A program made the position numbers and the translations under genes. DNA of 64,000 nucleotides from Eledone cirrhosa (lineage: Eukaryota): the NCBI GenBank assembly GCA_964016885.1, contig OZ024747.1, positions 88,970,001-89,034,000 of the forward strand. Reading direction: 5' to 3'. The notes under the pieces were generated by a model that worked only from the letters and a program-made list of their open reading frames with translations, did no database searches and was not told the DNA's origin. How positions within the stretch are numbered: the first letter of the stretch is position 1; the number at the start of each line of letters is the position of its first letter. This document shows positions 3,480 through 56,752 of this stretch, one piece after another.

Positions 3480-5805
3480 GTTGTGTTCCAGACATCAGCT
3501 TAATAATGAGAAAATTAGTTATATTAATGAATCGCTCAAAATATTTGATTATTTTCACAATCATATGAAAACCATAAATCAATGTTTTTTTTCCATAGAA
3601 ATGTGATAATGAATGGGTTGAACAAGACAGCTGAAAGACTAATTACCAAACGACTATACATACATATTACTTAGTAACAGAAGTAGAGAAGACTTTACAG
3701 TTGTGTCAAGGACATGATGACCTCCCTAGTGCTGGTGCCATGATAAAATACACTGCACACTCTGTAGAGTGTGGGAATATAAGCAAGATGAGGTTTTGGC
3801 CTATCTGAGAGATCAGTAGTTCTGATTCAGTACTGGTTTGGTCTGTGACAACTTGTTCAACTCTTGTTAACAGAGAAAACAAACATTAAACGACAATGAT
3901 GTGAAGAAAAGTATTATTTATAATAGAGTCAAGTAGAGAAAGAGAAAAAGAGACAACAGTCAATAATACTGAACTATATTGTTGCAATAGTTGAGTAAAT
4001 AATTCATCACACTCTCAGCTTCTTCTAGCATATGACACTCTTAGTTGATGAATCACTGATTCTCTAAATAAACATTCTTTAATGTTTGCTCAACAATAAT
4101 TGAATGTGACAATAACTACTAAAGTCACTTTAACTTTCTAGTAATTTATAGTTAGGTAAGCATCTTTTAATTTTTTGATTGCATTGATGCCACATAATTC
4201 AAGGAATTTTAGCTGAACCAGGTTCAGGTAGTTCCCCGGAGAGATGGCGCTAGTTACTACAAGGTTAAGTATTATCTATATGGCAGTTTAACCATATAGC
4301 TACTTCTTCAGCATTATTGAGATTTAAGTATATATTAGACTCCATCTTACTGTTGTTAGCTGACAAGAGACACATTTTTGTTGCCAGCTATTGTGTTTAC
4401 AATAAGTCCACGACAGTAAGTAGCTACGTAAGAGACTTCAGACTGTTGTTATAACTGAATATCACAGTTCAGTGACATTACTGAAACGGTTCACCACAAA
4501 ACTATGTTGGACATTGAACTGGTAGCCACCATAACTCTTTCGTTAATCTATTTCTAAATACACTATATTTGAATTAATGAAAAAATTGGAAGGGTTTACT
4601 CAAATTATTTCTTTAATCCTTTAGCATTTAAACAGGCCGTATTTGGCCAGAGTTCTCTCACCTCTTTCTGTTCAAACCAGCTGTAAAATGGCTACTCATA
4701 CTGATGTTAAGGTATTGTTCTCAAAAGAAATAAGATCAAAATCTTATAGATTCAATATTATGTAAGATAATTTTGTGAGGTAAAGCCTTTACCACAAAAA
4801 TATAATAGTATATATATAGAGTAATGTGAATGCTAAAGGGTTAAGATGGTATTTATAACATAACTTAACAAAAGGTTCTTATACAAAATTGTTGGAAGAT
4901 TATAATTGAAATAGGAACTCTTTAAAAAGAGTGGTTTTGTTGAAGAGAACCAGTGTTGATTATAAATCAGGTAGATAGATATAGTGTGAAGATACATAGG
5001 GTTTCTCTCCTGCCATGATACCGTCCCCCATTACTCAACCAACAATTATCATTGTCTCCCTACCACATTTCCCTCTTCACATTTAACCTCATCACCACTG
5101 CAGCCTCTTCAAGTTAAACACTTGGACACTTCGTGTCCTGCAATGTAGAGGCAAGGCAACTTCTCTCGTGTTTGTGCCATAATAAAATAAACCCAGTACA
5201 CTCTGTAAAGTGGTTTGAAAATTGAACTGAGACACTTTAAGGTAGAAAGGACTTGTTACTCTTGTCAAGGACCTGACAGCCTCTCTAGTGCTGGTGCCCA
5301 AACAAAATGGACTCAATAGTTAGTGCTAAGAAAAGCATCAAACAGTAGACGCCCTGCTATAAATTGGATGTGGTCCCCTTAAATTAGGAGAGTAGTAACT
5401 TCAAATAAGAACCGATTTAGACCAGCATATAAAGCAGATGTTGGATGTAAAAAAAGAGGATGGCGACGATGAATCTATATTTAAATCTGAGCAACTTCTG
5501 TCTATCCGTCTGTCACACAATGTGTGTGTGTGGGCGTGTGTGTTTGTGTGAATGTATGTGTGTGTAAAAAGAAGGAAGAGGATGTTGAAAAAACTATAGC
5601 AAAAGAACAACTGGCATTCCATTTGCTATGCTGTGTGCGGGTGTATGTCTGTGAGTATGCATTTTGTAAGTGTGTCTATGTTTGTGTGTTTATATTTATA
5701 TACTCATACATATAAATGTATGCACATGCACATACACACATATACATATACACATACGCGACAGCGTGTTGAAATGATTTCTAGTACTATAAATATAAGA
5801 CTTAC

Positions 5806-8756: not shown

Positions 8757-9478
8757 TCATCATCATTTTACGTCCACTTTTCCCTGCTTGCAAGGGTGGG
8801 ATGGGTCCTATTCAGCACAACATCTCTCCACTTGTTACGGTTCTTCGTCATCTCCATCGTGAGCTTCAGCGATCTGAGGTCTGCTCTCACCACCTCCGCC
8901 CATGTTTTGGTCTACCTCTACTACGTCTTCCTTCAACTGGCATTTCTTGGCACTTCTTTACCCATCGGTCATCCTCCATGCACATTACATCCTCTTCCGC
9001 ACATAACAATCTATCCCTCTCAGACACAGTTTCTCTCTCAACACATCTATGCTTGGTTGTTCACGCACATTGACATTGCACATCCGACAGAGCATGTTTG
9101 CCTCATTTCTCTCCAGCCGTCGCATATCCTCTGCAGTTCCTGCCCATGTCTCACTACCATGCAGCATCGCGCTCCTCACACAGGCATCATATAACTGGCC
9201 TTTTGTACGCAGGGAGAAACCCTTCTTCGTCAGCAGAGGAAGCAGCTCCCTAAACTTCTTCCAACCCGTCCTTATTCTAGATACTATTGGCATCGGAACA
9301 TCCCCCTCCCATGCTAATCTGATCACCTAGGTACCGGAAGCTATCAACCACTTCTATAGCACCACCTGCATTTGAAAAATGTGTCTATCTACTGCATAGG
9401 TATTTCTCCCTACCTGTTAGTTTGCCTGCTATCCCACTATATTTCTTGTGTACCCAAGATCTGCATTGCGTACATTTT
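8757..9478 (-). mobile_element. RTE LINE 3' fragment (same family as 11862-14527)
   Basis: RIRTGWKKFRELLPLLTKKGFSLRTKGQLYDACVRSAMLHGSETW; shares the (ATG)n tail. Confidence 0.9.
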
Positions 9479-10006
9479 ATACGTATGTATATATCTAACC
9501 GTAACTCCTGGTGGAGTCGTAGGAACAGCACTGTGACATACAGCGTGTTTTGGGTATTTAAAAAAAAAACCTGGTGGAGCCCATTTCCTCTCCAGGTTTG
9601 AAGGATGAAAGGCAAAGTTGACCCTGGTAGAATTTGCATGCAGAGAGCTTGAACAAATACTGCAATGTAGTCTTCTCTCTTGCATACTACGTTTAGTTCC
9701 TCTAATACCCAGTTTCTCTCTCAGCTCATCCCTGATTTGCTGTTCAAGCACACACTACAACACAACCCAACCACAACATGTCGGTGCCATGAATATCAAG
9801 AACAAATTAGAAATACAAGCAGAATAGATATGCTGCTGATAAAACATTCAATAACCACAAGTATCAACAACAACAAAAACCATCCTCATACAGGTTCTAT
9901 TTTATCTTCTGGTGTCCTTTCTTTTCTCCTAACAAGTTCTTCAACCTTCTTGATACCAATCTGCCTGAAATCACCCTTGATTCTAATGATACAAAACTAT
10001 TTATCT

Positions 10007-11861: not shown

Positions 11862-14527
11862 ATCATCATCATCATTTTACGTCCGCTTTTCCCTGCTTGC
11901 AAGGGTGGGACGGGTCTTATTCAGCACAGCATCTCTCCACTCGTCACGGTCCCTCGTCATCTCCACCATGAGCTTCAATGATCTGAGGTCTGTTCTCACC
12001 ACTTTTCGTGGTCTACCTCTACCACGTCTTCCTTCAACTGGCATTTCCTGGCACTTCTTCAACCATCGGTCATCCTCCATGCGCATCACATGTCCATACC
12101 ACCTCAGTCTCCTCTTCCGTACACTACATTCTATCCCTCTCAACACATTTATGCTGGGTCGTTCACGCACATTTACACTGCACATCCAACGGAGCATGCT
12201 TGCCTCATTTCTCTCCAGCCGTCGCATATCCTCTGCAGTTGCTGCCCATGTCTCACTACCACGCAGCATCGCGCTCCTCACACAGGCATCATACAACCGG
12301 CCTTTCGTACGCAGGGAGAAACCCTTCTTCATCAACAGAGGAAGCAGCTCCCTAAACTTCTTCCAACCCGTCCTTATTCTAGATACTATGGCCTCGGAAC
12401 ACCCTCCTCCCATGCTAATCTGATCTAGGTACCGGAAGCTATCCACCACTTCTATAGCGCCCTCCTGCATCTGAAAAATGTGTCTATCAATGCAACTTCT
12501 ACTGTCTAATTTCCCTGTACATCTACTGCATACATATTTCTCCCTACCTGTTAGTTTGCCTGCTATCCCGCTACATCTCTTGTGTACCCAGGATCTGCAT
12601 TGTGTGCATTTTATAGAATTTATGCCAGTTCCTTTTCTGCATATCGAACATGGCCATTTCCCTGACGGAATCAGGGTTTTGTCCTCTTTTCTACTCATCA
12701 ACACTTTTGTCTTAGCTAGGTTCACTCTCAGTCCTCTTGCTTCCAACTGCTGTTTCCATAGCCAGAATTTATTCTCTAGCTCCTCTACTGATTCTGCTAT
12801 AAGAACCAGATCGTCAGCATAGAGAAGTTCCCATGGACAGCCAGTCTTAAACTCCTCTGTTATGGCTTGGAGGACTATAATGAACAAGAGCGGGCTGAGG
12901 ACCGAACCTTGATGTACTCCTACTTATATCTGGAATTCCTCACTAAACTCCATTCCTACCCTGACTTTACTGAGAGTACCTCTGTACAAAGTTTGCACTG
13001 TCCTCATAAGATATTCCACAACACCTAGCTTCCTTAGGGACCACCAGATGACAGATCGGGGTACCCTATCAAAGGCCTTCTCTAGGTCAACAAAGGCTAA
13101 GTATAGTGGCTTTATTTTTCTCTAAGAACCTCTCTTGCAATTGTCTCACCAAGAAGAGAGCATCTGTTGTACTCTTCCCAGGCACAAAATCAAACTGCAT
13201 CTCATCTAGTTTGACGCTTTCTCCAATTAGTTGTGCTAATATCCTTTCTGCCACTTTCATAACCTGATCCATCAGTTTTATACCCCTATAATTGCTCCTC
13301 TCCAGAGCATCCCCTTTACCTTTGTAGCAATTTATGAGAATACTGCTGCACCAGTCTTTGGGTATGACACCACCATATATAGCCTGATTGATGATGCGTG
13401 CAACCAGTTTAGTGCCTACGTCCCCTGATGCCTTCAGCATCTCAGCAACTATTCCCGATGGTCCAGCAGCCTTACCATTTTTCATTTCCCTAATCGCCTC
13501 TTGGACCCTATATTCGTTAATCTCAATAGCTGGTCCCTCTGTCGGATCTACTAAGGGTAATTTCTCTCTCTCCCATTCGTTCTCCACATTCATCAGTCTC
13601 TCATAATGACATTTCCAGGCCTCCTTTTTCTGATCATTCGTGACACTAAGTACAGCGGCATCATCCCGACACATTTATCTCCAACAACATCCTGATTTGC
13701 ATTGACACACTACCTTGCAATGTAGAACACCGCACCCCTCTGATCTTCTCCCCGTCGCAGAACATTGGCAAACCTCCTACTCTCCGCCTCCCTGCGTGCT
13801 AAGTACACCTGACGTCTAGCTTCTCTCTTAGTGGCTGTATATTCTTCCCTACTCCAACCTTTTTTCCAAGCCTTCCATGCTAGTCTTTTGTCTCTAATGG
13901 CCTTATCTACTGTGCTGTTCCACCACCAGGTCACTCTCTGTCTGGTTGGAGCTCTGCTCCAGCCACAAGTTTCATCAGTAGCCTGCAGCAAGTTGTCACG
14001 TTAGAAATTCCACTTATTATCTATGTCATGCGTCTCTAAATAGACTTCTTTTTCGTCATATACATCTTGAAGGGCTTTCCTAAATTTGTATTTTAATGAA
14101 AGGTCTTTTAGCTTCCAGACCTTTCTTCGCCACACCTTCCTGTATGTCTCATTCCATCTCTTGCTTGCTGAGATATCACTAACGACTAACCTATGCTGTG
14201 GGGTACATTCTTCCCCAGGGTATGCCTTGGTATTAGACACTATCTGCCTGTCCCGCTGCCTAACTAGTAAGAAGTCAATCAGGCTTATGTGCTCACCAGA
14301 TTTGTAGGTTATTAGGTGATTGGCAGGTTTCTGGAAGTTTGTGTTGCAAATAGTCAATGTACCTGCATCACAAAATTCAAGAAGTCTCACTCCTTCTTCA
14401 TTTCTTGAGCCGTAACCGTGCCCACCATGTACCCCAGTGTAACCATCCTGGAGCTGTCCAACATGACCATTGAAGTCTCCTGCTAGCATAACGATGTCTC
14501 CGTCCTCTGTCATTGCGGTTGTCACGT
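11862..14527 (-). mobile_element. RTE-clade non-LTR retrotransposon, 5'-truncated and disrupted
   Basis: APE endonuclease motifs (GDFNGHVG, IDFLLVR, QHRLVV), RT motifs (NYRGIKLM, YADD) and C-terminal LRWYGHVMRM. Several frameshifts and stops; (ATG)n tail running into (TA)n. Confidence 0.95.
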
Positions 14528-15115
14528 AAAAAATTCCAGTTATGTATATATATATGTGTGTATATATATATATATAAATATATATATCTTTTCAGGTTAC
14601 CTTGAAACCTGTGTAGAGCATCAACCCCTTTTTTCAGATGGGTGGGGGTGGGGGGTTATTTAATTGCTCATTTATTCAATCTATCAATTTATATGAAAAA
14701 AAAAAAAGTTACTTTTCAACACTGAAATATTTCCTGATTATGAAAAATTAACCGAATCTTTATAATGTTATAGTGTAAAAAAGAAGAGAAATACTGCTGA
14801 CAATATCACTGTTACCATCACCACCATTGGTTTTATGTCCCTTTTCCATACTAACATAAGTTGAACAAATCTGCAATACAACAACTAGTCAAATGTCTCC
14901 ATCCCTAATATAGATACTTACGAGGGTTAAGCTGAAAAGTTCAGGAGACTATGTTGAAAAATAAACCTCATTTGGTCACATTCCATGAGAGTATCTTGGT
15001 CAACATATAAACCTTCCAGCCAACCTTTGTATCATTCAAAGATATTTGCTCTTTGAGCTTCAGAATTCATTAAATGCGTCAACATTCTTTGATAAACCAT
15101 AATTTCCTCTTGTCT

Positions 15116-26600: not shown

Positions 26601-27404
26601 CCAGTCAAGTACTGGTCAACAAACACAAAGTTAAAGAGAAACAATTAAAGAGATACTGAAAGATTAAGAGTTAGAGAGATAGGAATATAAACGGAAGTAA
26701 TGATGTGGTAATAATATGAGAGGGGGTGGGGGGTCAAGATAACGTAAAGAGGTAGAGCACATTGATTCAGCAATGTAGTGGTACATATAAAAGAACGGGA
26801 GTAATAGCTACATATGTTGTATTGTCTCATATGCATCTTTCCAGCAGCTTTTTCTAAGCCATCATGCAACCTGGGCTCAATATTAAGCAATAGCACCCCT
26901 ACGCACAAAATTGCATTGCAAACGGGGTGGCTGAAGAGGAAAAGTATGCTTTTGTTCATTCTTCTTACCTATTTCGTTTTTTTAATTTTATTTATGTGCA
27001 ACATTGCTATTTATACACACAAACACATAGAGGATAATGGAAGGAGATTGTTTTTGTATTAGAAACAATTCATTTTTGAAATCAGTATCAGTATTATGAG
27101 TTTTCTCTTTCTTATTAACTAACATGTGTAGGTTAAACAAGTTTTTGCGAACCTGTTTCAAAATAATTGTTCCAATGAAAACCCATCCCATCATGCAAAC
27201 ATGCAAAAATGGATGTGAAAGAGCAATCTGTAAATACACACACACACCCATATATTTATATATATATATAGAAGGACCGCGACAAGTGGAGAGATGCTGT
27301 GCTGAATAGGACCCATCCCACCCTTGCAAGCAGGGAAAAGCGGACGTAAAATGATGATGATAATGATATATATATATATTATACATATTTTTATATATAT
27401 ATAT

Positions 27405-27760
27405 ATATTAATTCAAAATATTAACAAAATAGATATTCTTGTGATCAATTATATTTTATTATACATATTTCAGAGGTACTGAGTTAAGTTCAACAGTACG
27501 TCCTCATCAGATAAAATAAAATGATACATGACATACCCTGACTTAGTAGATGGTTAAGATTCAGTCATGGTAGATCGTTAAGATTCAGTCACTACCATGA
27601 CTGAATCTTAACCATCTACTAAGTCAGGGTATGTCATGTATCATTTTATTTTATCTGATGAGGACGTACTGTTGAACTTAACTCAGTACCTCTGAAATAT
27701 GTATAATAAAATATAATTGATCACAAGAATATCTATTTTGTTAATATTTTGAATTAATAT
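27405..27760. repeat. Perfect inverted repeat, two 169-bp arms with an 18-nt spacer
   Basis: 27405-27573 is the reverse complement of 27592-27760; I found no mismatch by eye. Confidence 0.92.
27647..27713 (+). ncRNA. Type I hammerhead ribozyme, minimal stem III (mirror copy on minus strand at 27452-27518)
   Basis: TATTTTAT-CTGATGA-[ggacgtactg...cagtacctct]-GAAA-TATGTA-TA^ATAAAATA. 8-bp stem I, intact core, AUA triplet. Confidence 0.7.
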
Positions 27761-28009
27761 TAATAACTCTGGAAAACCTTTTCTGTTGAGTGCTTCCAAT
27801 CTATTGTAAAACTCATTCTTTGATGTATTCATTGAACCTTGTTTAACTCTTAAATATATATATATATAGGAACAAGTAAGACCCCGACGGCTGAGCTCAA
27901 GCCGTTTCGACGGCTAATTCTGTACTGTTCCTATTACCCACTCTACTACCCTAAGTATTGAGTACTTGGTGTGTTATGGTCCACCTGGTTCCTTACCACA
28001 TTTCCTTCG

Positions 28010-28053
<44 letters not shown>

Positions 28054-28147
28054 GTGTGTGTGTAGGAGGTGAATTTTATTGTAGAACAATAAAACTATGC
28101 ATATATAGGATAAGTAGCACTCAACAGTTTATTGAACTGGAGTATAT

Positions 28148-28742
28148 ATAAGAAGAAATCAAAAGATGGTTAAAAAAGTTCCACATATTTTATTATGCGC
28201 ATTTCAAAAACAAATATCATCCTGGGACGATAGTTGCGTTCTCATCAGATAAAATAAGGTAACATATGATGCCTAAAAAAAAACACTTGTTAACAAGAAA
28301 GTGTCCAGACAACATATGATAAAAAAATATAAAAGGAGAGAGATGATTGGAAAAAAGAAGGAAGAGGGAAAAGGAAAAAGAAGGAGAAGATAACGGAGGA
28401 AAAATTTAAGAAGGAAAGAGGAGAGAGCAAGAGAAAGGAGAGAGATAGAGATTTTTAAATGGAAACGCTGACAAAACTGAAAAACAGCTGTGAATAACGG
28501 CTAAAAAAATATATATACGGCTACGAAATAAATAATAAATTGATGAGTTTATGATTACAGATATAGAAACTAGGTATATTATTTATTTAGGGTTTATATA
28601 CTAAAAAAATTTATTAAGAGGTGTGAAAATGTATTATTAAAATAAAATAAAGTAAAATAACTATCGTCCCAGGATGATATTTGTTTTTGAAATGCGCATA
28701 ATAAAATATATGGAACTTTTTTAACCATCTTTTAATTTCTTC

Positions 28743-28746
<4 letters not shown>
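28148..28746. mobile_element. Penelope-like remnant with 88-bp inverted arms, embedded in (TA)n
   Basis: Arms differ at 2 of 88 positions by eye; contain the hammerhead; (TA)n on both sides. Confidence 0.6.
28186..28256 (-). ncRNA. Type I hammerhead ribozyme with palindromic stem III
   Basis: Minus strand reads TATTTTAT-CTGATGA-[stem II]-GAAA-TGCGCA-TA^ATAAAATA. Lies in the left arm of the inverted repeat 28148-28235 / 28659-28746. Confidence 0.72.
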
Positions 28747-28808
<62 letters not shown>

Positions 28809-52593: not shown

Positions 52594-54133
52594 TTATTCA
52601 TATAGGCTCCTCCACTCATTTCAATAACACTTCATACCTATGGAAGAAAACAGTCATTTACTTCAATATATCCATACTTCGTTTTAGATATAATAGCAGA
52701 CTTAACCCTTCTAATATCAAGCCCTGGTCCTGAAACAAAACTACTTTGTTTTAAAATGTTTATATTTATGTAAAATCCTTCCACCAAACTTTCATGTTAA
52801 AGCCATAGTTAAGCTTTAATTCAATTACCAACAATCCCTCCAAATTCTTCATTATTTTCAAAATTATTTTAAATATATAGACAGTATATTTCATTAAAAA
52901 TATGGTAACAAAAGGGTTAATCCACCATTGGTCTTAGGTTTCTTTAGCAGAGTTCACTCTGTAGCAAGCATTTGAACTAAGGATAACCAATGTATTAGAG
53001 TATCTTTCTCTGTTTCCCCTACCAATCTTGGAGGCCCTGTAGAAACTCTGATTGAACCATTAAGAATCTCTTATGTAAACAATATACCAATCTCTTCATT
53101 TCAACACAGCTATATAATTCAGAGAATAGAATAGATCTGCGTCTCTATGTGTCATAAGAGGTGACTAAAAGGGCTAAACCAAAGAAAGGCATCTGGATAT
53201 AGAACATTGCCTCAAAAAGGACCTCATATGGACAGAGTACAGCCTGAAGTACTTAGTGAGAGTGGGACACCCACATCCCCCTCATCAAAACTCAAGGTGG
53301 GAAACCTGGTCACAACAAACGATGAGTTCAGTTCATTTATGATAAGATGGAGGAGGAAATGAAAGTCAGGGGTTTGGTAAGGGGCAGGGATACAGATGAT
53401 AGGATAAAATGGAGCAGCTTGTGATGGGGCCCACAAGGTAAACCTCTACTTTGGCAGGGGAAATGGTTTTAAAACGTTTATTGTTGTATATAATTCATTG
53501 TAATTAGAAAGCTTTCAGTCTTTTCTTAAAAAACCAGCACCTGAAACTATCAATCATCATCATCATTTTACATAGACTTTCCACATTGGCATGAGTTGGG
53601 TGGGTTGACACAGTCTGAGACTAGACAGGTCAGAGTGACCTCCTCTTGCTCATTCTTTCCATATTTAGCATTGTTTCTATGGCTGAATGCCCTTCCTAAT
53701 ACCAACCAACACTACCACTGTACAGAGTGTACTGGATGCATTTTTTCGTGGCACCAGCACTACCATTTCACAGAGTGCCCTGGGTATGTATAATCGGAGC
53801 ACCAACACTAATACTTTACAGGGTGTACTGGGAGCATTTTATTGTTAACACCAACACTAGACAGGTTGTCACATACTGAATCTCTACATAACCTGCTTAA
53901 AGTAACAGCCAAACCTCCCTTATACTGGATCGTAATCTTTTAAAAAATTTAAGAACAGACTCATTGTATTATGTAATCATAACTATTTTGTTACAACCTT
54001 CTATGTTCTGGTTCCAAATACACTTTTCATCATGCCGTGGGTCAATAAAATAAAGTATAAGTAAAGTGATGGGGTTGATAATTGTATTCAACGCCACAAA
54101 ATAAAAAACAAATGGTTGACCTTGTGCTTAAAG

Positions 54134-56752
54134 TAGAAACCATTATGTAGACCTAAATATATTATACTTGAAATCATTATGTAGACCTAGATATATTATA
54201 CTTGAAATCATTATGTAGACCTAGATATATTATACTTGAAACCATTATGTAGACCTAGATATATTATACTTGAAATCATTATGTAGACCTAGATATATTA
54301 TACTAGAAACCATTATGTAGACCTAGATATATTATACTTGAAACCATTATGTAGACCTAGATATATTATACTAGAAACCATTATGTAGACCTAAATATAT
54401 TATACTTGAAATCATTATGTAGACCTAGATATATTATACTTGAAACCATTATGTAGACCTAGATATATTATACTTGAAATCATTATGTAGACCTAGATAT
54501 ATTATACTAGAAACCATTATGTAGACCTAGATATATTATACTAGAAACCATTATGTAGACCTAAATATATTATACTTGAAATCATTATGTAGACCTAGAT
54601 ATATTATACTTGAAATCATTATGTAGACCTAGATATATTATACTTGAAACCATTATGTAGACCTAGATATATTATACTTGAAATCATTATGTAGACCTAG
54701 ATATATTATACTAGAAACCATTATGTAGACCTAGATATATTATACTAGAAACCATTATGTAGACCTAGATATATTATACTAGAAACCATTATGTAGACCT
54801 AGATATATTATACTAGAAACCATTATGTAGACCTAGATATATTATACTTGAAACCATTATGTAGACCTAGATATATTATACTAGAAACCATTATGTAGAC
54901 CTAGATATATTATACTTGAAACCATTCTGTAGACCTAGATATATTATACTAGAAACTATTATGTAGACCTAGATATATTATACTAGAAACCATTATGTAG
55001 ACCTAGATATATTATACTTGAAATCATTATGTAGACCTAGATATATTATACTTGAAATCATTATGTAGACCTAGATATATTATACTTGAAATCATTATGT
55101 AGACCTAGATATATTATACTAGAAACCATTATGTAGACCTAGATATATTATACTTGAAACCATTATGTAGACCTAGATATATTATACTTGAAATCATTAT
55201 GTAGACCTAGATATATTATACTTGAAATCATTATGTAGACCTAGATATATTATACTTGAAATCATTATGTAGACCTAGATATATTATACTTGAAACCATT
55301 ATGTAGACCTAGATATATTATACTTGAAACCATTATGTAGACCTAGATATATTATACTAGAAATCATTATGTAGACCTAGATATATTATACTAGAAATTA
55401 TTATGTAGACCTAGATATATTATACTTGAAATCATTATGTAGACCTAGATATATTATACTAGAAACCATTATGTAGACCTAGATATATTATACTAGAAAT
55501 CATTATGTAAACCTAGATAGATTATACTTGAAATCATTATGTAGACCTAGATATATTATACTTGAAATCATTATGTAGACCTAGATATATTATACTAGAA
55601 ATCATTATGTAGACCTAGATATATTATACTTGAAATCATTATGTAGACCTAGATATATTATACTAGAAATCATTATGTAGACCTAGATATATTATACTTG
55701 AAATCATTATGTAGACGTAGATAGATTATACTTGAAACCATTATGTAGACCTAGATAGATTATACTTGAAACCATTATGTAGACCTAGATATATTATACT
55801 AGAAACCATTATGTAGACCTAGATATATTATACTAGAAACCATTATGTAGACCTAGATATATTATACTTGAAACCATTATGTAGACGTAGATATATTATA
55901 CTTGAAATCATTATGTAGACCTAGATATATTATACTAGAAACCATTATGTAGACCTAGATATATTATACTAGAAACCATTATGTAGAACTAGATATATTA
56001 TACTAGAAACTATTATGTAGACCTAGATATATTATACTAGAAACCATTATGTAGACCTAGATATATTATACTAGAAATCATTATGTAGACCTAGATATAT
56101 TATACTAGAAATCATTATGTAGACCTAGATATATTATACTAGAAACCATTATGTAGACCTAGATATATTATACTAGAAATCATTATGTAGACCTAGATAT
56201 ATTATACTAGAAATCATTATGTAGACCTAGATATATTATACTAGAAATCATTATGTAGACCTAAATATATTATACTAGAAATCATTATGTAGACCTAGAT
56301 ATATTATACTAGAAATCATTATGTAGACCTAGATATATTATACTAGAAACCATTATGTAGACCTAGATATATTATACTAGAAATCATTATGTAGACCTAG
56401 ATATACTAGAAATCATTATGTAGACCTAGATATATTATACTAGAAATCATTATGTAGACCTAGATATATTATACTAGAAATCATTATGTAGACCTAGATA
56501 TATTATACTAGAAACCATTATGTAGACCTAGATATATTATACTTGAAACCATTATGTAAACCTAGATATATTATACTTGAAACCATTATGTAGACCTAGA
56601 TATATTATACTTGAAACCATTATGTAGACCTAGATATATTATACTTGAAACCATTATGTAGACCTAGATATATTATACTAGAAACCATTATGTAGACCTA
56701 GATATATTATACTAGAAACCATTATGTAGACCTAGATATATTATACTTGAAA
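54134..56752. repeat. 34-bp minisatellite, about 77 copies
   Basis: Unit t(a/t)gaaa(c/t)cattatgtagacctagatatattatac; period 34 (for example 54181 to 54215). Confidence 0.97.

What the first reader, a model, noticed from the sequence alone, without database searches (positions are those of the whole stretch)
27405..27760. Perfect 169-bp palindrome in which each strand encodes a hammerhead ribozyme preceded by its own antisense
Seen: arms 27405-27573 and 27592-27760 are reverse complements. The 18-nt spacer is a partial repeat of 27550-27567, a template-switch-like scar. The right arm carries a complete type I hammerhead (8-bp stem I, CUGAUGA, stem II, GAAA, minimal stem III, AUA cleavage after 27705). 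Known: minimal hammerheads with palindromic stem III that act as dimers are characteristic of Penelope-like elements, whose pseudo-LTRs are often inverted. Inference: whichever strand is transcribed, the antisense arm is made first and the ribozyme second, so the ribozyme would be locked in a 169-bp duplex. This could be a self-silencing design and is a strong ADAR/Dicer substrate.
Basis: partly seen in the sequence, partly recalled or inferred. Interest (0 to 1): 0.75.

Follow-up and report, generated by a model that had tools for sequence, protein, structure and literature searches.

The report
Penelope (Hydra-clade) twin-primed pLTR palindrome
This perfect DNA palindrome is two head-to-head copies of the hammerhead-bearing front end of a common Penelope-like jumping gene, one of over a hundred such in this genome, and it is likely a by-product of insertion (both cut DNA strands copying the same RNA from two fixed points) rather than a built-in self-silencing device.

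Summary
Each arm is the pseudo-LTR (pLTR) of a Penelope-like element with thousands of copies. In 9 sampled copies this pLTR runs straight into an RT–endonuclease ORF with Hydra-clade motifs.

At least 110 other tight head-to-head palindromes exist. In 50 examined, 42 pair an arm ending at position ~169 with one ending ~100 nt later ('tail'); none pair like with like; 8 are interrupted. The window obeys this rule, which argues against a fold-back artefact.

The arms usually share a haplotype. Either arm can reach further 5′, some pairs do not overlap, and joins pile up at a TATA/Inr start. Best reading: twin target-primed reverse transcription from two internal AU-rich sites, run-off at the RNA 5′ end, then end-joining.

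A read-through hairpin would abolish the ribozyme fold, but nothing indicates design. Inverted pLTRs with a hammerhead on each strand are published. The twin-priming reading was not found in print, but this scan has reached it repeatedly on other DNA.

The parts
27392..27404 (.). (TA)n target, left side
   Evidence: sequence; most family ends abut (TA)n: 135 of 164 short or tail ends, ORF run-ons included
27405..27573 (-). short ('S') arm: pLTR positions 1-169, ending at the family's fixed site 169
   Evidence: ends at 169-171 in 43 of 100 arms
27452..27518 (-). type I hammerhead, mirror copy, predicted cut after 27460
27574..27591 (.). 18-nt templated junction insert (copy of pLTR 7-24, one mismatch, GTAG/CTAC microhomology)
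   Evidence: similar inserts in L139, L179, L180, L200, L203
27589..27593 (+). Inr-like TCACT; likely transcription start at the A (27591). The upstream TATA box (-31 in longer copies) is absent here
   Evidence: 5' ends pile up here; same TATA+TCACT reported in PMC3846280; start site itself inferred
27592..27760 (+). long ('T') arm, pLTR positions 1-169
   Evidence: 96-97% identical to the pLTR directly upstream of the ORF in L117 and L103
27629..27634 (+). possible splice donor GTATGT, about 38 nt after the likely start (untested)
   Evidence: sequence only; analogy to the 5' intron of D. virilis Penelope (PMC2377424)
27647..27713 (+). type I hammerhead of the Hydra-clade pattern, predicted AUA cut after 27705, palindromic stem III
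   Evidence: pattern matches the Hydra rows of File S2 of PMC8557442
27761..27862 (+). one-sided tail, pLTR positions 170-271, ending in the AU run that in full copies leads into the ORF leader
27858..27868 (.). (TA)n target, right side (overlaps the tail's AU run)

Best explanation
The palindrome is two head-to-head copies of the hammerhead-bearing pLTR of a high-copy Penelope-like retroelement with Hydra-clade motifs, likely made during one insertion event by twin priming rather than selected as a silencing device. Shown: identity with the pLTR, thousands of copies, at least 110 sister palindromes, the one-short-plus-one-tailed end rule, and (TA)n targets. Inferred: the element's protein cuts both strands of a (TA)n tract. 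Each 3' end pairs with one of two internal AU-rich sites of the same uncleaved RNA (positions ~169 and ~271) and primes reverse transcription. Both cDNAs run off the RNA's 5' end at the Inr. Their 3' ends are then joined with microhomology and an 18-nt templated insert. The copy has no ORF or TATA box. Only read-through transcription from a flank would make the 169-bp hairpin.
For: In 9 of 99 tail-class copies the pLTR runs on into the ORF leader. Whole pLTR-ORF-spacer-pLTR units lie in L127, L129 and L130. ORF motifs RWR, DKT, YRDD, CxCX5C, YIG, CxxC..E..N..CxH appear and fit the Hydra definition. Exact 16-mer: 2061 copies, control 12; 22-mer: 3938 copies; tight palindromes: 110, control 0. 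In the first 50 of the 110 listed: 42 S+T, 0 S+S, 0 T+T, 8 interrupted, p=2e-13. The S arm reaches further 5' in 17, the T arm in 18, tied in 7; fold-back of one cDNA predicts T always. In 24 of 48 S+T joins of the mixed set neither arm is a subset of the other, and L014, L160/L161 and L172 have non-overlapping arms (also L211). Arms share haplotype: 3.4% discordant at 5 sites (41 pairs) against 34% for 4140 random pairs. 17 of 46 5' ends in the tail-selected set fall at -6..+8, and 10 of 30 in a genome-order set at -5..+5. In vitro, a Poseidon protein cuts and extends both strands, starts at two internal sites that bound the tail, and uses uncleaved RNA (PMC11167929).
Against: Some pairs differ at linked family alleles: L003 5 of 5 differences, L004 7 of 9, L013 9 of 12; 8 of 41 pairs differ at 2 or more major sites in the mixed, selected set. 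These need two templates or later conversion. L173 is a true tail+tail pair. The window's own T arm reaches as far 5' as its S arm, so this single locus is also compatible with fold-back. The start site is inferred from motifs and end pile-up, not mapped. The tight-palindrome pattern selects joins near the start. Pfam and PDB did not recognise the ORF. The clade call rests on motifs read by eye, with no tree.
Confidence: 0.78

Rival explanations
1. Fold-back (self-priming): one cDNA, or an antisense template, snaps back at its 3' end and copies itself until it anneals to the second target end (proposed in PMC3846280).
For: Arms usually identical in haplotype, with 10 of 42 having no difference over 100-140 nt. 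The window's spacer begins with TGA, which could hairpin on TCA.
Against: It cannot give non-overlapping arms (L014, L160/161, L172, L211). It cannot give an S arm that reaches further 5' than the T arm (17 of 42). It cannot give long copies ending at 169 with a tail on the short inverted arm (L129, L130).
Confidence: 0.12
2. Selected self-silencing or dsRNA-producing design: the antisense arm locks the ribozyme and feeds ADAR or Dicer.
For: The hairpin abolishes stem I in silico. 36 of 50 palindromes keep the core intact on both arms.
Against: Join position is variable and many partner arms lack the ribozyme. Arms drift apart by 0-11%. Active elements have direct pLTRs around the ORF. The monomer is predicted to be mostly misfolded even without the antisense arm.
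Confidence: 0.04
3. Assembly or read fold-back artefact at this locus.
For: The arms are 100% identical.
Against: The left arm stops at the family's fixed site 169 and meets a unique flank, while the right arm carries the tail, exactly as in 42 of 50 sister loci. A read fold-back would mirror the tail and the flank too. The spacer carries a mismatch, and sister palindromes have diverged arms.
Confidence: 0.03
4. A self-contained palindromic mini-element (retrozyme- or MITE-like) copied as a unit.
For: A few junctions recur (e.g. TCATGA in 4 of 50).
Against: Junctions are mostly locus-specific, and the recurring ones sit at CATG/TCA microhomologies. Haplotypes differ between loci but match within a locus. 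The units are not tandem.
Confidence: 0.03

Closest known systems
Hydra clade of C-terminal EN+ Penelope-like elements (Craig et al. 2021, PMC8557442; passages, section 11 and supplement parts read), e.g. Penelope-13_HM, Hydra-1_Obim
   Same: RWK/RWR, DKT, CxCX5C, CxxC/CxH motifs; no CxxC between the two GIY-YIG strands; (TA)n targets; hammerhead of form CUGAUGAN...YGAA. Penelope-13_HM is listed with a 5'-truncated inverted copy and a hammerhead on both strands.
   Different: A different family from Hydra-1_Obim (different hammerhead and N-terminus, by eye). The unit is 4.0-4.4 kb against generally under 3 kb, because of an AT-rich 3' spacer of up to about 2 kb. The tail is about 100 nt against the 30-40 nt given for PLEs.
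EN+ Penelope insertions with inverted pLTR, junction palindrome and one-sided tail (Adineta Pen2a, PMC3846280, passages read; PMC8557442 Fig. 2 legend)
   Same: Head-to-head inverted pLTR, tail at one end, TATA plus TCACT Inr in the pLTR.
   Different: Those authors favour self-priming on an antisense template; the end statistics here favour two independently primed cDNAs.
Anolis Poseidon (PAc) in vitro mechanism (Frangieh et al. 2024, PMC11167929; main text parts 1-2 read)
   Same: Two internal RT start sites bounding the tail; both strands cut and extended; uncleaved RNA used as template.
   Different: There the start site is not homologous to the target; here both sites are AU runs able to pair with (TA)n. 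The paper does not link the two sites to the inverted arms (term search).
L1 twin priming (recalled, not from a call)
   Same: A second nick primes internally and gives a 5' inversion.
   Different: L1 arms are non-overlapping parts of the RNA from variable sites; here both sites are fixed and the arms overlap, giving a palindrome.
PLE minimal type I hammerheads (Cervera and de la Pena 2014, PMC4209133; parts 1-2 read)
   Same: Palindromic helix III, dimer-type design; pairs 100-700 bp apart on opposite strands already noted.
   Different: 8-bp helix I; position 10.1-11.1 reads G.U, or G-C with unpaired flanks.

Membership tests
EN+ Penelope-like element | single ORF with RT and C-terminal GIY-YIG-type endonuclease | tested here: met
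   In family copies, not in the window: ORFs in L100 and L103 with YRDD and YIG motifs; 71 homologues. Pfam gave no RT or EN hit.
EN+ Penelope-like element | pLTRs flanking the ORF, direct and inverted | tested here: met
   L127, L129, L130, L062
EN+ Penelope-like element | [quoted passage not shown] | tested here: met
   42 of 50 S+T; the tail is about 100 nt
EN+ Penelope-like element | type I hammerhead in the pLTR | tested here: met
   (motif and fold only)
EN+ Penelope-like element | target-site duplication | tested here: inconclusive
   both ends lie in (TA)n
EN+ Penelope-like element | retained 5' intron | not testable with these tools
   donor-like GTATGT only; no RNA run
Hydra clade | RWK motif and DKG modified to DKT | tested here: met
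   RVRWRAF and SDKTNN in L103; definition
Hydra clade | CxCX5C linker; CxxC and CxH around E and N; CCHH absent | tested here: met
   CNCRNKPDC, CNLC, CLH; a single Cys between VY and YIG
Hydra clade | (TA)n insertion preference | tested here: met
Hydra clade | RT phylogeny within Hydra | not tested
   reference proteins were seen only as paper text; no tree built
Neptune clade | CX2-5CxxC linker plus CCHH endonuclease | tested here: not met
   linker is CxCX5C and there is no CxxC inside GIY-YIG; my working label until
Non-LTR retrozyme | head-to-tail tandem units each with a hammerhead | tested here: not met
   head-to-head pair; definition in 10.64898/2026.07.22.740005 (part 1 read)
Active hammerhead ribozyme | self-cleavage after NUH | not testable with these tools
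   no pile-up of 5' ends at the cut site: 0 of 30, 1 of 12

The most novel reading that the evidence does not exclude
Penelope-like elements integrate by obligatory twin priming. One dimeric RT-endonuclease primes both cut strands of a (TA)n tract at two different fixed AU-rich sites of one RNA, so every insertion has one short and one tailed end, and the inverted pLTR is simply the second cDNA. The 42:0 end rule in this Hydra-clade family is its genomic fingerprint and makes the open PLE integration mechanism directly testable.
Probability: 0.65. Interest if true: 0.55.

Novelty: new member of a known kind. Interest (0 to 1): 0.3.

Why it matters
The locus itself is ordinary, one of more than a hundred. 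The set of copies bears on how Penelope-like elements, the retroelements closest to telomerase, make their inverted ends and tails; PMC8557442 lists this as unresolved. The strict short-plus-tail rule, the non-nested arms and the run-off at the Inr give sharp predictions for the existing in vitro system. These insertions also scatter near-perfect hairpins through the genome, which would be dsRNA substrates wherever host transcription reads through them (untested).

Tried and rejected
Rfam found no hammerhead family. The Pfam and PDB sequence searches did not recognise the ORF. The 'longer' homologue search found nothing, and the Atlas was unavailable.

Reads: no RNA holder was listed. In contigs of X1-X4 the locus-specific junction 27576-27587 had no cover at 100% identity, and no piece spanned the stretch. 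This says nothing either way, since the runs may be of another individual and records are filtered.

One search used mis-oriented coordinates and hit the 3' spacer; loci L067-L096 were left out of all counts. Duplicate loci of the same place were dropped before the counts; L160 and L161 may be one duplicated locus. One search crashed and was redone. The stem I indices and the stem II indices were off by one and are not used.

Rejected labels and ideas:
- Neptune was dropped after motif comparison.
- A family-wide antisense RT piece in the 3' spacer proved specific to L066.
- The lead that copies stop at the ribozyme cut was not seen: 0 of 30 and 1 of 12. The 9% fall from 3938 to 3581 matches over five more bases is near what mutation and ordinary truncation would give.

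Literature searches for a printed twin-priming account of PLEs listed none. Arkhipova 2006 was not held, subscription papers are not searchable, and I did not read the supplements of PMC11167929 (Figs S1-S2), which may bear on this. No host exon was evident among ORFs of 100 aa or more near the locus (by eye), so read-through transcription is unknown.

Full report
Observation. The arms 27405-27573 and 27592-27760 are exact reverse complements for 169 nt, and the 18-nt spacer repeats 27550-27567 with one change. Each arm holds a type I hammerhead: 8-bp stem I (27647-27654 with 27706-27713), CUGAUGA, a stem II closed by G.U, GAAA, a self-complementary AUAUGUAU stem III and an AUA cut after 27705. 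The descriptor finds 3 hits in the window against 0.05 expected. Rfam has no matching family.

What it is. The arm is a repeat of a 3.0-Gb genome. An exact 16-mer occurs 2061 times (control 12) and an exact 22-mer 3938 times. The right arm continues about 100 nt beyond the palindrome before (TA)n. Walking upstream from long copies led through an AT-rich spacer to an RT-endonuclease ORF. In L117, L103, L105 and L115 the pLTR plus tail, 91-97% identical to the window's, is followed directly by that ORF. L127, L129 and L130 hold whole pLTR-ORF-spacer-pLTR units, 4.0-4.4 kb between pLTR starts in L127 and L129. The window has no ORF of this family near the locus.

Clade. The ORF shows RWR, DKT, YRDD, CxCX5C, YIG, CxxC and CxH, and no CxxC inside the GIY-YIG region. 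These are the stated marks of the Hydra clade (PMC8557442 section 11). The hammerhead fits the Hydra rows of that paper's File S2, where Penelope-13_HM is listed with an inverted 5' copy and a hammerhead on each strand. The assignment is by motif; I built no tree.

How common. A pattern for tight head-to-head joins finds 110 loci (control 0). The window's own join has a 36-nt gap and lies outside that pattern, so 110 is a lower bound. I examined the first 50 listed. In 42, one arm ends at about 169 and the other at about 250-271; none has two short or two tailed arms; 8 have an interrupted arm (p=2e-13). Ten of 42 pairs show no difference over 100-140 nt, and the rest differ by up to 11%. A perfect palindrome is therefore expected of a young copy. 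The window follows the same rule, which a read fold-back would not.

Mechanism (inferred). Four results bear on it.
(1) Both ends behave as priming sites. Long copies end at either site, with the other on the short inverted arm (L062 and L127 against L129 and L130). Both sites are AU runs that abut (TA)n.
(2) The arms are not copies of each other. The short arm reaches further 5' in 17 pairs, the tailed arm in 18, and 7 are tied. In a mixed set of 62 joins, 48 were short+tail, 4 tail+tail (3 run on into the ORF; L173 is a true exception) and 10 interrupted. In 24 of the 48, neither arm contains the other, and L014, L160/161 and L172 do not overlap at all.
(3) The arms mostly come from one template: 3.4% discordance at five polymorphic sites against 34% for random pairs. 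L003, L004 and L013 carry different haplotypes on their two arms, so two templates or later conversion also occur.
(4) 5' ends pile up at an Inr-like TCACT lying 31 nt after TATAAA in longer copies: 17 of 46 and 10 of 30 in two sets not selected on that end.

Together these fit twin target-primed reverse transcription from two fixed sites on uncleaved RNA, run-off at the 5' end and microhomology joining. The window's spacer is then a templated insert like those in L139, L179, L180, L200 and L203. This agrees with the in vitro behaviour of Anolis Poseidon (both strands cut and extended, two internal starts bounding the tail, ribozyme cleavage not needed; PMC11167929). It argues against the self-priming proposed in PMC3846280 as the general route, although this one locus alone cannot separate the two.

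The silencing idea. In a read-through RNA the hairpin (-276 kcal/mol) removes stem I entirely. In the sense arm alone the active register is already only 0.03-0.11 probable, and a single minimal hammerhead from a Schistosoma element did not cleave detectably in vitro (PMC4209133). Variable joins, partner arms without the ribozyme and drifting arms point to a by-product. A transcript starting at the centre would hold only one arm. Copies do not pile up at the predicted cut site, so there is no genomic record of cleavage in this family. Expression, editing and small RNAs could not be examined.

Novelty. Inverted pLTRs, junction palindromes, one-sided tails and opposite-strand hammerheads are in print. 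Four searches listed no paper giving a twin-priming account for these elements, but the library lacks most subscription papers. I had stated the twin-priming reading before looking. The scan's notes then showed 23 findings with these words in at least 11 genomes, one in this genome; they are unreviewed and are not independent support. Verdict: a real feature, a new family of a known clade, with a useful but repeatedly seen mechanistic signal. Interest 0.3.

Noticed in passing
window 27866-27926 (-) and 27927-28012 (+): A second repeat family inserted in the same (TA)n, as a short inverted arm plus a tail arm that overlap by only about 9 nt; the contiguous form is in L029. It carries GAAAC..GUC without a CUGANGA found by my scan, and may be the rearranged hammerhead that other notes of this scan describe (untested).
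   Followed up: partly
window about 28100-28260 (-) and 28659-28751 (+): A third family with a type I hammerhead (same stem I, perfectly palindromic AUGCGCAU stem III), again one tailed and one short arm. Three such insertions lie within 1.4 kb.
   Followed up: partly
window about 54100-56700: Tandem array of a 34-bp unit, about 95% identical copies.
   Followed up: no
G000:C1:157160544-157161358: The pLTR 5' 16-mer recurs every 92 nt at least 9 times after an inverted copy: a tandem array born at a junction.
   Followed up: no
L066 about 4640-5030: Locus-specific inverted piece of the RT region inside the 3' spacer, a further template-switch product.
   Followed up: partly
window 27597-27611: A four-codon upstream ORF (MTES*) in good start context just after the likely transcription start, followed by a donor-like GTATGT; the main ATG lies about 320 nt downstream in full copies.
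   Followed up: no
window 11880-14591 (-) and 8988-9754 (-): Fragments that read like a LINE-type RT and AP endonuclease (label from recall).
   Followed up: no
L129 5822-6212: Two copies of the family meet tail-to-tail across a short gap, both ending at position 169.
   Followed up: no
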